Shown: piece by piece, positions 10,901-49,827 of the stretch
Numbering within the stretch: position 1 is the first letter of the stretch
Layout of the letters: every line of letters starts with the position of its first letter
Source of the DNA: the human T2T-CHM13v2.0 reference genome, Homo sapiens
Direction: 5' to 3' (one strand)
NCBI RefSeq assembly: GCF_009914755.1
Contig: NC_060925.1
Length of the DNA stretch: 64,000 nucleotides
Position numbers and translations under genes: made by a program
Notes under the pieces: generated by a model
What the model was told of the DNA's origin: nothing
The model's database searches: none
The model's input: the letters and a program-made list of their open reading frames with translations, nothing else

Positions 10901-11624
10901 CTACTCAACACATCCCCTGCACATGTGCTTCTGAGGGGCTGTCTCTGTACACTCCAATGGGACTCAGAGGCTGAGTCCTGGCCTAAGCTGTTCCCTACCG
11001 TATCACTGCCATATTTCCCTTCTTCTTCTATGTGGGGGCACTTGTCTGCCTTCCTGGTTCAGCCCTGCCCCGTTCTTCCAATGCCAGTGTGATCTGGCAT
11101 CGATTTACCCCTCCCCTCCTCAGCACCCTTCCACCGTGGAACAGGGCCTATGTCCCTAGGGGTGCATGTGCCTTGGGCCTGCCTTCTCTCTTAGACTGTG
11201 CTCTGTAGGAGTGGAGGGCACACCTGCTCTGTGCTCTAAACCCCAAGCTCCACTCACGGGGATGACAGAATGAACAATTCCTCTCTGCCGCAGATGCCAC
11301 TTTGAGGGAAGACCGAGTACCCCTGCCACTAGAAAATTGGGCTGGGGGCAGATTCATGGATAGGGCAGGCTATCAGCTTCCAGTGGAGTCAGATCACGGG
11401 AGGGGAGGCAGATAAGGTTGGAGTGGGATCTGTGGGGAACAGGCCTCTTACAGTGCATAAGGTGGAACATGGAACACATTTCTGGCAGTGCCTCCCCTGT
11501 GTTGGCTCGAGAAGTCCCGTCTGCAAGTGGGGAGCAGGTCAGAGAGGCCTATGTTGACATTTCTCAGGCTGAAGACCAGGCATGTATATCCTTCAACTTT
11601 GAAGTCCCTGGAATACAGATATTC

Positions 11625-11737
11625 TGAGACAACACTCAGGATACCTAAGCCCCATGCTGATAAGGGCCACAGATGGCCTCACTCGGTGTGAGTGGTCCTT
11701 ATCAGCATGGGTCTTAGGTATCCTGAGTGTTGTCTCA
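11625..11737. repeat. Long inverted repeat: 46-bp arms, 21-bp spacer
   Basis: 11625-11670 tgagacaacactcaggatacctaagccccatgctgataagggccac versus 11692-11737, whose reverse complement matches at 44/46 positions. Confidence 0.97.
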
Positions 11738-11815
11738 CTGTATTTGTGGAGTGACCTACAGTCAGGAGCTATCTCTGAAGTCTGGGCTTCCAGCCACAGG
11801 ACACCTGGCTCCCTC

Positions 11816-11822
11816 TATAAAG
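11816..11822 (+). promoter_or_regulatory. TATA box of the chymosin pseudogene
   Basis: TATAAAG 55 nt upstream of the signal-peptide ATG (11871). Confidence 0.8.
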
Positions 11823-11870
11823 GCTGTGGAGTGGGCTCTGGCTGGAGCAGTGGCCAGTCTGCAGTCCAGG

Positions 11871-11932
11871 ATGAGGGGCCTTGTGGTATTCCTTGCAGTC
11901 TTTGCTCTCTCTGAGGTCAATGCCATCACCAG
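11871..11932 (+). pseudogene. CYMP: CYMP exon 1 (signal peptide MRGLVVFLAVFALSEVNAIT)
   Basis: Similar to bovine MRCLVVLLAVFALSQGAEITR; donor AG|gtgagt. Confidence 0.95.
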
Positions 11933-12169
11933 GTGAGTGTCAGAGCCCAGGGGAGGGCAAGGGCATCTCATCGTCCTCTCTGGGAGGTCTGTCCTTGGTC
12001 TTCCAGCCATTGGTCCCCCAGGGAGTCTTGGGAGAAGTGCTGCAAGTTCCCAGGGTAACAGCTCCCTGTCAGTCTTGCCTTTGCATGCTGGGACCTTTGC
12101 TTCTGTTTACCCCAGCACTTCACAGTGTGGTGAAAAGAACAGGGAGCCAGATGGGCAACTGGGAGGATA

Positions 12170-12385
12170 GGGCATGGCTCTGGAGTCAAACTACCTGGGG
12201 TTTGATCCCCAGCTCCATCACTAACTTAACTCTCTGTGCCTCAGTTTCCTCCTCTGTTCATAAAATTTGAATAATGGTAGTGTCCATCTCATAGGGATGT
12301 TGTGAGGATTATAGGAGTTAATATTTAAAAAATGCTTCAAACGATGCACACTGTAAGAGCTATGTATGCATTTGTTAAACAAAAT
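12170..12385 (+). mobile_element. MIR in CYMP intron 1
   Basis: ggctctggagtcaaactacctgg...ctctgtgcctcagtttcctcctctg...gttgtgaggatt. Confidence 0.8.
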
Positions 12386-13533
12386 AAAGTTCCCTATTGT
12401 ACTAATCCTTTGTGGGTGAAGATCTCAGGTTCTCCTCCCAAAGTAATAACTGACATTGATTGAGCTGTTTGCTCCTAGGTGCTAGGCACTCCACTAAGCC
12501 ACTAATCCTCATGGATTAAGTACATATTATCATTTGCAATTTACAGATGAGACACTGTTGTTTAGGAAGGGTTCCTAAGGAGGGTCCCTGAGCTGTCCGA
12601 GGCTGCATGGCTAGTAATGGAGGAGCTAGGACTTGGCCTCCGTGGATTTGCACTCTTGCCATCACATCACGTGGTAATCTACAGGTGCTCAGGTTTGAGT
12701 CTGGTCAAGCCCTGAGCACAGAGAAGCCCCGATTACTCCCTGGGAAAGCTGGATCCCAGAAAAGGGGTCAGGGTGCTTTCAACTGGCCCGGAATCTTTGT
12801 GGCAGTCCTGAAAATAAAGTTCCTCCAGGTCCCAGGTGCGCTATCTGCCCCAGCACTTGGGATGTGAACAGCCTGCGAAAATCCATTCTCTCTGTGAGTT
12901 TTAACACTGCTGCCATTTATGGCTCTCAAAGCACATCTCAACAGTCTCACAGAGGAGGACCACGTGATTCTTAGAGGTAAAAGGGACTGTGGGAATCACT
13001 GAGTTCTACTTCTGTCTATAGGAGAGGAAACTAAGGACCAGAGAGGTTAAGCCATAGGGCTAGTCAAACGCAGGGCCAGGAGAATGGCTGGAAAGGAAGG
13101 GGTTAACCTAAGGGAGTTGAAACTCAGAGGGCTTTGGGGAGCCACCCAAGTTGACACAGACAGGGCAGTGCCAGGTCTAGAACCAGTTTCTGCATTTCCT
13201 CTCTTGATCTCTTCACTGTTGATCTGCCTCCATCATCTAAAACTCGAGCTCCCTCAGGAGGCCCCTGTGAGACCAGGCTCTGTGCTGAGAAACCGTTTGA
13301 GAATTTTCCACTCGTCTTAGGGAAAAAGCTATCCAGAGAGCGGAGAAAGGGTATTGACAGAGGGCAGGATCATTGTCGTAGCATTTGTCAGCTTGTGGGA
13401 GACACCGTTTTTCACTGCAGACAGTGGGCTCCCGGCGGGCAGAGACGGTGTCCTTTCCAGTGTTGTGTCCCCTGTGCCCTGTACAGTATCTGGCACAGCA
13501 AGAATTTGGTGACTGAATGAGTGATAATGTGCT

Positions 13534-48291: not shown

Positions 48292-49827
48292 TCATTTCCT
48301 AGACTTCTCTGTGGAACAGCCACCATTGGTCTTATTAAGAGAGTCTGTGCTGCCCATTCTTGAGCCTACACTGTTGAGGATTCTTTCAATTTCTCCTGGG
48401 ATGTTCTGCTTTTCTTCATTCTCAGTCTCCCGGTGGTAGAAGTAATTGAAGTTGGAGACAATGACAGGCACAGGGAGGGCAATGGTGAGGACCCCTGCAA
48501 TGGCACACAGAGTGCCCACAATCTTCCCCCCTGGGGTGGTCGGGCACATGTCCCCATAGCCTACAGTTGTCATGGTGACCACTGCCCACCAGAAGCCATC
48601 AGGAATGCTAGAGAAATGGGACTCTGGCTCATCCACCTCAGCAAAGTAGACTGCACTGGAGAAGAGGATGACTCCAATGAAGAGAAAGAAGATGAGCAAC
48701 CCCAACTCCCGCATGGACGCCTTCAGTGTTTGCCCGAGGATCTGCAGCCCCTTGGAGTGGCGCGAGAGCTTGAAGATGCGGAAGACCCTCACCAGGCGGA
48801 TGATCCTCAGGATGGCCAGGGACATGTTCTGTTGGGCACTCGGCTCTGTCTCCTGGACTAGCTCTGTGATGAGAGTTGCAAAGTAGGGGATAATGGAGAT
48901 GATGTCAATGATGTTCATGATGTTCCTGAAGAAGTCAGTCTTGCTGGGGCAGACCACGAACCGGAGCACCAGCTCGAAGGTGAACCACACGATGCAGGTA
49001 GACTCCACCATGAAGAAAGGGTCGGTGAACATGGTCTGGGAGAGGACTGTCTTGCTCATGTTGAGATTGGGGTCTCTGACCACCTTCAGCTCCCTATCCT
49101 CCCGGAACTCTGGCAGTGTCTCCAGGCAGAAGATGGTGATGGAGATGACCACAACCAACACCGAGACCACGGCCACAGCACGGGCAGCGCTGGAACTTTC
49201 AGGGTACTCAAAGAGGAGCCAGAACTGACGGTGGATGTCATTGGTGGGTAGCAGTGTTTCAGGGTCTTTGATGAAGCCTTCATCCTCCCGGAACTGGTCC
49301 ATGGCCTCACTACCCAGCTCATAGAAGGAGATTTCATCAGCAAAGATATCAATGGGAACATTGGCTGGGCGCCGAATTTTCCCACCAGATTGGTAATAAT
49401 ATAGGATTCCATCAAAACTGGGCCGGTTCCGATCAAAGAAATACTCATTTCTCATGGAGTCAAAGAACTGCATCCTTTTCTCCCGGTCTCCCAGGAGAGT
49501 CTCTGGGAACTGACTAAGGGTTCTGAGCTGGGTCTCAAATCTCAGCCCAGCAATGTTGATGATCACCCGCTGGTTTCCTTCATTTAGGACCACTGGCTCA
49601 GGCCCTGGGGGGTCAGCATAGTCTCCCGGAAGCTTGGAGAAGGCCGTCTCATGGTTGGTGCTTTCGCTGATGAGGATCTTCCCGTTGGAGAAGGAGCTGC
49701 CCCCAGGCCGGCCTTTTGGGCTGGTTGAGTCGAAGTCTGTGGCATAGCCTGGCTCTTCTTGGATTTCATCTGAATTATCAAAATTGACCAGCGCAACCTC
49801 CATTTCTTTCCAGCCACACACATCCAT
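48292..49827 (-). CDS. KCNA10: Voltage-gated potassium channel Kv1.8 (Shaker family), 511 aa, intronless ORF
   Basis: T1 domain ([13 protein letters not shown]...[21 protein letters not shown]), S4 ([18 protein letters not shown]), pore TVGYGD, S6 PVP; N-terminus [17 protein letters not shown] recognised as KCNA10. Confidence 0.98.

What the first reader, a model, noticed from the sequence alone, without database searches (positions are those of the whole stretch)
11591..11744. Near-perfect 46-bp hairpin in the CYMP proximal promoter that duplicates a GATA site
Seen: arms 11625-11670 and 11692-11737 are reverse complements at 44/46 positions (one G.U-compatible pair, one C/T mismatch) around a 21-nt spacer. 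The stem extends a further 7 bp (aatacag/ctgtatt) past a 6-nt bulge and ends 79 nt before the TATA box. Each arm carries a GATA motif (TGATAA 11658-63, TTATCA 11699-704). The left arm is bracketed by tiny inverted repeats (gaata-caga-tattc; ggcca..tggcc), and cttcaa-ct-ttgaag lies just upstream. I do not recognise it as MADE1, MER5 or another MITE and see no TSD. Inference: the arms are far more similar than the decayed neighbouring old repeats, suggesting a relatively recent template-switch/fold-back duplication or ongoing arm-to-arm conversion. It could extrude a cruciform, alter GATA-factor control of a dying gastric gene, or fold into a pre-miRNA/endo-siRNA-sized stem (~110 nt) if transcribed from either strand.
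Basis: partly seen in the sequence, partly recalled or inferred. Interest (0 to 1): 0.8.

Follow-up and report, generated by a model that had tools for sequence, protein, structure and literature searches.

The report
Single-copy palindrome upstream of CYMP
A real, near-perfect inverted repeat sits just upstream of the dead human chymosin gene; it is most likely a harmless one-off copying error of DNA replication, not a mobile element or a known RNA gene.

Summary
Arms 11625-11670 and 11692-11737 are complementary at 44 of 46 positions around a 21-nt spacer. A further 7 bp pair beyond a 6-nt bulge. The fold is far beyond chance (z = -13.3, -11.7 and -13.3; 0 of 200 shuffles each). It is the only close inverted repeat of 30 nt or more in the 64-kb window. 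I found none in 200 kb of random human DNA.

Arms and flanks are single-copy in the T2T human genome, so a multi-copy palindromic transposon is effectively excluded. No Rfam family reaches its threshold, and no annotated transcript covers it.

The best reading is a local inverted duplication by replication template switching or fold-back priming. It was followed by two substitutions and one 6-nt indel, and the second GATA site is simply the copy. This is inference by exclusion, because no other mammalian genome could be searched. The age is loose, about 3-75 Myr at 1e-9 per site per year.

Cruciform, GATA-control and pre-miRNA roles have no support from anything I could reach. It is a new example of a known, common kind of mutation, and interest is low to moderate.

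The parts
11612..11618 (.). Outer stem, left half (aatacag)
   Evidence: It pairs 7/7 with 11738-11744. Chance over 21 bulge registers is about 1.3e-3.
11619..11624 (.). 6-nt bulge (atattc), present in the left arm only. It is an indel that arose after the duplication or during it.
11625..11670 (.). Left arm of the inverted repeat (46 nt). It carries TGATAA at 11658-11663.
   Evidence: 44 of 46 positions are complementary to 11692-11737.
11671..11691 (.). 21-nt spacer. It holds the only CpG of the element (11684) and can form two 5-bp mini-hairpins with the inner arm ends (11665-11678 and 11678-11692).
   Evidence: The mini-hairpins appear in the folds (centroid).
11692..11737 (.). Right arm of the inverted repeat (46 nt). 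It carries TTATCA at 11699-11704.
11738..11744 (.). Outer stem, right half (ctgtatt)
11816..11821 (+). TATAAA box of the CYMP promoter. It lies 71 nt beyond the extended stem and 50 nt before the annotated first base and ATG (11871).
   Evidence: One search gives the position. The transcript start is from the hub's gene table.
11871..11932 (+). CYMP exon 1 (context only). The palindrome lies upstream of it and is in no annotated transcript.
   Evidence: Hub gene table.

Best explanation
The element is a one-off local inverted duplication of unique promoter-proximal DNA. It is the product of a short-range template switch during replication, also called a fold-back or the '3-2-1-4 / 1-4-3-2' type of the four-point model.

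Proposed steps (all inferred):
1. The nascent strand left its template and annealed nearby in reverse-complement orientation. It probably primed at a short pre-existing inverted repeat that is now hidden in the inner ends of the arms.
2. It copied at least 53 nt of the neighbouring sequence backwards and then returned to the original template.
3. This created a perfect hairpin-capable palindrome with a 21-nt spacer in a single event.
4. Two substitutions and one 6-nt indel followed.

The second GATA motif is a passenger of the copy. The element is most likely selectively neutral, sitting about 127-259 bp upstream of the ATG of a pseudogene.

Shown: the anatomy, the single-copy status, and the absence of any match to a known RNA family. 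Inferred: the mechanism, the direction of copying and the neutrality.
For: - Anatomy: arms 44/46 complementary plus a 7/7 outer extension, with a 21-nt spacer. This fits the requirement that the 2->3 fragment be a reverse-complement copy of adjacent sequence (PMC5453318, passages read).
- BLAST of the 141-nt element: it finds only its own locus in the 3.1-Gb T2T genome, with 1 candidate in the first look.
- Pattern scans allowing up to 3 mismatches:
  - 24-mer: own two arms plus 3 other hits, against 1.27 expected on a uniform model.
  - 23-mer: own two arms plus 3 other hits, against 4.4 expected.
  - 25-mer: own left arm only, against 0.36 expected.
- Extension test: none of the 6 foreign hits aligns beyond 25 nt of the 170-nt query.
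- Flanks: both flanks (312 nt and 126 nt) are unique.
- Rarity: it is the only inverted repeat of 30 nt or more within 300 nt in the 64-kb window. My own scan found 0 in 200,000 random bases.
- Precedent: the literature shows this mutation type is common and makes whole hairpins in one step. The primate lineage to human has 53,666 putative events in genic regions. Of these, 31,007 create a new stem and 6,054 are of miRNA size. Fragments of 28 to 83 nt are described (PMC10710096, Results read).
Against: - The defining test, an outgroup that lacks one arm, could not be run. No other mammalian genome is held.
- No microhomology is visible at the present arm/spacer boundary: 11671 and 11691 are A and A.
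- The 6-nt bulge needs a second event.
- The BED of significant human/chimp/gorilla template-switch events contains no coordinate beginning 1104 (PMC7954356, 2 of 7 supplementary files readable). The only '1104' match is an event ID. This fits an event older than the African-ape split, or one simply not called. My GRCh38 position (about chr1:110.48 Mb) is an estimate from a recalled KCNA10 coordinate. Only 2 of the 9 '1105' matches in file 1 were displayed.
- The ends read TA-CAG...CTG-TA (11614-11618 and 11738-11742), which resembles a Tc1/mariner terminus with a TA target duplication.
Confidence: 0.6

Rival explanations
1. An older, imperfect inverted repeat was already there. Its arms were later homogenised, either by the classic Ripley-type template switch that perfects a quasi-palindrome or by arm-to-arm gene conversion. 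The arm similarity would then date the last conversion, not the origin.
For: - The classic mechanism is described as converting near-perfect repeats into perfect ones (PMC5453318, passages).
- The outer 7-bp stem beyond a bulge, and the mini-hairpins in the spacer, could be remnants of an older, more decayed palindrome.
Against: - Homology stops abruptly at 11611/11745, and there is no graded decay.
- Nothing here distinguishes this reading from a single de novo event.
- Template switching also occurs without pre-existing similarity (PMC10710096).
Confidence: 0.12
2. An ancient palindromic cis-regulatory element of the chymosin promoter, for example paired inverted GATA sites. It would have been kept nearly perfect by selection while the gene was functional and has been decaying only since pseudogenisation in primates.
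For: - It lies in the proximal promoter, 71 nt upstream of the TATA box.
- Each arm has a WGATAR motif.
- Two differences in 46 are compatible with neutral decay over 29-43 Myr: P(2 or fewer) is 0.25-0.85.
- Chymosin is reported inactivated 'in humans and other primates' (PMC2441467, passage).
Against: - Transcription-factor sites do not require 46-53 bp of perfect dyad symmetry. Selection on two 6-bp motifs would not preserve the other 40 bp of each arm.
- WGATAR is not enriched here: 1.84 per kb in the window gives about a 7% chance per arm.
- No RefSeq functional element is listed here in the hub's table.
- My literature searches found no study of the chymosin promoter.
Confidence: 0.1
3. 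A miniature inverted-repeat transposon of the Tc1/mariner (pogo-like) type, 125 bp long (11616-11740). It would have CAG...CTG termini and a TA target-site duplication that is hidden because TA is itself palindromic.
For: TA-CAG at 11614-11618 and CTG-TA at 11738-11742. The size and palindromic build are typical of such elements (recalled, not tested).
Against: - No other copy exists in 3.1 Gb. The BLAST search and three pattern scans with up to 3 mismatches returned only chance-level hits that do not extend.
- A copy 25% diverged from this one would pass each scan with probability 0.10-0.14. A family of even 50-100 such copies should therefore have shown up.
- Arms that differ by 4% imply a young insertion. 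By recall (Pace and Feschotte 2007, not read here), DNA transposons have been inactive in anthropoid primates for about 37 Myr.
Confidence: 0.03
4. Whatever its origin, the hairpin is now a working RNA gene. It would be transcribed, for example as an upstream antisense transcript of the CYMP promoter, and processed into miRNA or endo-siRNA.
For: - Both strands fold into very stable hairpins.
- 4 of 12 intergenic template-switch-born miRNAs lie within 1 kb of a gene promoter (PMC10710096).
Against: - None of the 18 Rfam matches at E of 10 or less in 11000-12400 reaches its gathering score.
- The whole-window scan at gathering scores finds only K_chan_RES, in KCNA10.
- No miRNA gene and no transcript is annotated over 11612-11744 (hub table).
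- The locus is not in the readable dataset of 111 template-switch miRNA loci.
- The stem is about 53 bp and near-perfect, against the preferred 35 bp. Only 0.9% (57/6,054) of suitable template-switch hairpins are annotated miRNAs (PMC10710096).
- Small-RNA data could not be consulted.
Confidence: 0.03

Closest known systems
Template-switch mutations that create hairpins (four-point model; Loytynoja and Goldman 2017, PMC5453318; Monttinen et al. 2023, PMC10710096)
   Same: - A reverse-complement copy of immediately adjacent unique sequence.
- A near-perfect stem made in one step.
- A few later point changes, as reported for 105 of 111 such loci.
- The fragment length of about 53 nt lies inside the 28-83 nt described.
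   Different: - The ancestral state is not observed here.
- The element is not in an intron or transcript but upstream of a pseudogene's start site.
- The stem is longer than the miRNA-sized class.
Palindromic miniature transposons of the human genome (Tc1/mariner- and hAT-derived MITEs)
   Same: A short palindromic unit of about 125-133 bp with CAG/CTG termini flanked by TA.
   Different: - It is single-copy in the genome.
- The arms are 96% alike, which a decayed old element would not show.
- There is no non-palindromic target duplication.
Cruciform-prone inverted repeats / non-B DNA motifs at promoters
   Same: A long inverted repeat near a transcription start. Single strands fold strongly.
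   Different: The 21-nt spacer is long. The review read here says short spacers favour structure formation and mutability (PMC12887540, passages). No structural data exist for this site.

Membership tests
Template-switch (four-point model) inverted duplication | One fragment is the reverse complement of nearby sequence on the same locus | tested here: met
   44/46 plus 7/7 complementary positions.
Template-switch (four-point model) inverted duplication | Source and copy lie within a few tens of bases (same replication fork) | tested here: met
   21-nt spacer. No other genomic source for an arm.
Template-switch (four-point model) inverted duplication | The ancestral or outgroup sequence lacks the copied arm, and one event explains the cluster of differences better than point changes | not testable with these tools
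   No non-human mammalian genome is held. The published great-ape event list has no entry at the estimated position.
MITE (Tc1/mariner-type) | Terminal inverted repeats | tested here: met
   Met trivially, because the whole unit is a palindrome.
MITE (Tc1/mariner-type) | TA target-site duplication | tested here: inconclusive
   TA flanks CAG/CTG on both sides. TA is self-complementary, though, so it cannot be told apart from an extension of the palindrome.
MITE (Tc1/mariner-type) | Multiple dispersed copies in the genome | tested here: not met
   Only the locus itself plus chance-level 23-24-mers that do not extend.
microRNA precursor | Match to a curated precursor family | tested here: not met
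   Best matches are mir-959 at 41.5 bits (gathering 85) and MIR7125 at 35.5 bits (gathering 100). Nothing at gathering score.
microRNA precursor | Stem of about 35 bp with an apical loop of 10 nt or more | tested here: inconclusive
   The loop criterion is met (21 nt). The stem is 46+7 bp and almost without mismatches. The criterion is taken from PMC10710096.
microRNA precursor | Transcribed and processed into about 22-nt products | not testable with these tools
   No small-RNA data are reachable. No annotated transcript covers the site (hub table).
Functional GATA-factor promoter element | Bound by GATA4/6 in gastric cells and needed for promoter activity | not testable with these tools
   Only the motif is present. 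The motif density is ordinary at 1.84 per kb.

The most novel reading that the evidence does not exclude
The inverted duplication is a lineage-specific template-switch event with consequences. Either it overwrote an upstream element of the chymosin promoter and so took part in silencing the gene in catarrhine primates, or it produced a still unannotated small-RNA hairpin that is transcribed by upstream-antisense activity of the CYMP promoter.
Probability: 0.05. Interest if true: 0.55.

Novelty: new member of a known kind. Interest (0 to 1): 0.25.

Why it matters
If dated with primate orthologues, this would be a clean and unusually long example (about 53 nt) of a template-switch mutation building a complete hairpin in one step, inside a promoter rather than an intron. 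It could be placed in time against the death of the chymosin gene. On its own it changes nothing that is known. Such events number in the tens of thousands along the human lineage, and fewer than 1% of the suitable hairpins become annotated RNA genes (PMC10710096).

Tried and rejected
- Transposon family. BLAST of the element, three pattern scans with up to 3 mismatches and an extension test of the 6 foreign hits gave chance-level results only. One foreign hit (L007) is an 18-nt match repeated at 55-nt spacing in an unrelated tandem array.\n- Known RNA family. Rfam was scanned at E of 10 or less over 11000-12400 and at gathering scores over the whole window. I saw only listings. No listed title or abstract deals with the promoter or its inverted repeat. 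The CYMP hits are mostly lncRNA cancer signatures.\n- Lopes-Marques et al. 2017 on chymosin loss is not held. I saw only its reference line.\n- Published template-switch event lists. The locus is not in the two readable files of PMC7954356 or in the one readable file of PMC10710096. The PDFs and one large text file of these papers could not be read and may bear on this.\n- Base-rate sampling. The first batch of 20 random 10-kb stretches worked. The estimate of 0 in 200 kb therefore only bounds the density loosely.\n- GAP-Seq paper (PMC4057610). It gave nothing on short palindromes.\n- Microhomology at the arm/spacer boundary: none is visible. This is uninformative, because a priming repeat would now be part of the arms.

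Full report
**What is there**

A script shows that arm 11625-11670 and the reverse complement of 11692-11737 agree at 44 of 46 positions. The exceptions are C11650/T11712 and G11666/T11696. The spacer is the 21 nt 11671-11691.

Beyond a 6-nt bulge in the left arm (atattc, 11619-11624), seven more bases pair: 11612-11618 with 11738-11744. Homology then stops. Such a 7/7 extension has a chance of about 1.3e-3 over 21 bulge registers, so the repeat is really about 53 nt per arm with one indel.

Other features checked:
- TGATAA is at 11658-11663 and TTATCA at 11699-11704, as stated.
- The only CpG of the element is in the spacer, at 11684.
- TATAAA is at 11816. From the extended stem there are 71 nt in between.
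- The annotated CYMP transcript starts at its ATG, 11871 (hub table).

**Is it more than chance?**

Yes.
- The + strand RNA folds at -102.9 kcal/mol (z = -13.28).
- The - strand RNA folds at -95.9 kcal/mol (z = -11.70).
- The DNA strand folds at -56.2 kcal/mol (z = -13.28).
- In each case 0 of 200 dinucleotide shuffles did as well.
- It is the only inverted repeat of 30 nt or more with arms within 300 nt in the whole 64-kb window.
- My own ungapped scan (arms of 30 nt or more, at least 90% identity, spacer of 100 nt or less) found this one in the window and 0 in 200,000 bases from 20 random 10-kb stretches of the same genome. That sample is small.

**Is it a repeat family?**

No evidence for one.

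BLAST of the 141-nt element against the 3.1-Gb assembly returns only its own locus, once as itself and once as its own complement. There was a single candidate in the first look.

Three pattern scans of the arm, allowing up to 3 mismatches, gave these results:

| Pattern | Own locus | Other hits | Expected on a uniform model |
|---|---|---|---|
| 24-mer | both arms | 3 | 1.27 |
| 23-mer | both arms | 3 | 4.4 |
| 25-mer spanning the bulge | left arm only | 0 | 0.36 |

The reversed-pattern controls gave 0 in every scan. When the 170-nt region is aligned to the six foreign loci, no alignment exceeds 25 nt. Both flanks (11300-11611 and 11745-11870) are also unique.

A family member 25% diverged from this copy would pass a scan with probability 0.10-0.14. 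A family of some tens to hundreds of copies would therefore have been seen.

The termini do read TA-CAG...CTG-TA, which recalls Tc1/mariner ends with a TA duplication. TA is self-complementary, however, so this cannot be told apart from the palindrome itself. The defining multi-copy feature is not met.

**Is it a known RNA?**

No.
- Of 18 Rfam matches at E of 10 or less in 11000-12400, none reaches its gathering score.
- The two matches on the palindrome (mir-959, 41.5 bits against 85; MIR7125, 35.5 bits against 100) are generic long-hairpin matches to unrelated insect and plant families.
- At gathering scores the whole window has a single hit, elsewhere.
- The hub's gene table has no gene or transcript over 11612-11744.

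**Most likely origin and mechanism**

The structure is single-copy, sharply bounded and near-perfect, and one arm can only have been copied from the other. That is what short-range template switching in replication produces.

In the four-point model the fragment between switch points 2 and 3 is copied in reverse complement. When it overlaps the flanking fragment it creates a new inverted repeat. Types 3-2-1-4 and 1-4-3-2 make up 31% of high-confidence human-chimp events (PMC5453318, passages).

Monttinen et al. give the scale of the process (PMC10710096, abstract and the whole Results section):
- 31,007 of them make a new stem.
- 6,054 are of miRNA size.
- Only 57 of those 6,054 (0.9%) are annotated miRNA loci.
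- Fragments of 28 and up to 83 nt are described.
- 105 of 111 loci gained mutations after the event.

The present element fits that picture, with about 53 nt copied, a 21-nt spacer, and two substitutions and one indel since. A short pre-existing inverted repeat that primed the fold-back would now be indistinguishable from the inner ends of the arms. The absence of visible microhomology at 11671/11691 is therefore not informative.

The mechanism is inference by exclusion. The decisive comparison with other primates and mammals could not be made, because no such genome is available to the tools.

**Age**

Two differences in 46 give 4.3% divergence between arms (95% interval 0.5-14.8%). With recalled neutral rates this is:
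- about 22 Myr (range 3-74) at 1e-9 per site per year;
- about 43 Myr (range 5-148) at 0.5e-9 per site per year.

So 'recent' is not established.

The list of significant human/chimp/gorilla template-switch events (PMC7954356, 2 of 7 supplementary files readable) has no coordinate beginning 1104. This is consistent with an event older than the African apes, or with a missed call. My GRCh38 position is an estimate from a recalled coordinate.

**Function**

Nothing I could reach supports one.
- WGATAR occurs 118 times in the window, or 1.84 per kb. One in a 46-nt arm is unremarkable, and the second is the copy.
- A review states that short spacers favour structure formation at inverted repeats (PMC12887540, passages). 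Here the spacer is 21 nt, although it can itself form two 5-bp mini-hairpins.
- The stem is longer and more perfect than the 35-bp optimum quoted for pri-miRNAs, and the site lies upstream of the transcription start.
- Chymosin is reported as inactivated in humans and other primates (PMC2441467, passage). A regulatory role would therefore serve a pseudogene.
- Literature searches for the chymosin promoter and CYMP (listings only) turned up no title or abstract on this element.

**Verdict**

A template-switch or fold-back origin is the best reading (0.6). The rivals are:
- homogenisation of an older repeat (0.12);
- an ancient selected promoter palindrome (0.10);
- a transposon (0.03);
- a working small-RNA gene (0.03).

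It is a new example of a known and common kind of mutation, and its interest is low to moderate.

Noticed in passing
window 48451-48564 (-): Rfam RF00485 K_chan_RES (potassium-channel RNA editing signal) matches the KCNA10 coding exon at 115.1 bits (gathering 51). The match is full-length (1-114 of 114), and no pair is flagged as non-standard. I did not check whether KCNA10 is actually edited, or whether the score only reflects coding conservation among Kv1 genes.
   Followed up: partly
L007:1508-1632 (G000:C13 near 58,999,550): An 18-nt exact match to the arm recurs at 55-nt spacing (1508, 1563 and, weaker, 1618). This is an unrelated tandem array that shares a short word with the palindrome by chance.
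   Followed up: no
window 11419-11442 and 11827-11850: A 24-nt direct repeat at 79% identity (TGGAGTGGG...) brackets the promoter, 408 nt apart. It is a two-copy short family and probably chance.
   Followed up: no
window 11398-11453 (+): A weak sub-threshold Rfam match to HOTTIP_1 (20.8 bits against gathering 50, E = 0.098) in a G-rich stretch upstream of the palindrome. It looks like a chance composition match.
   Followed up: no
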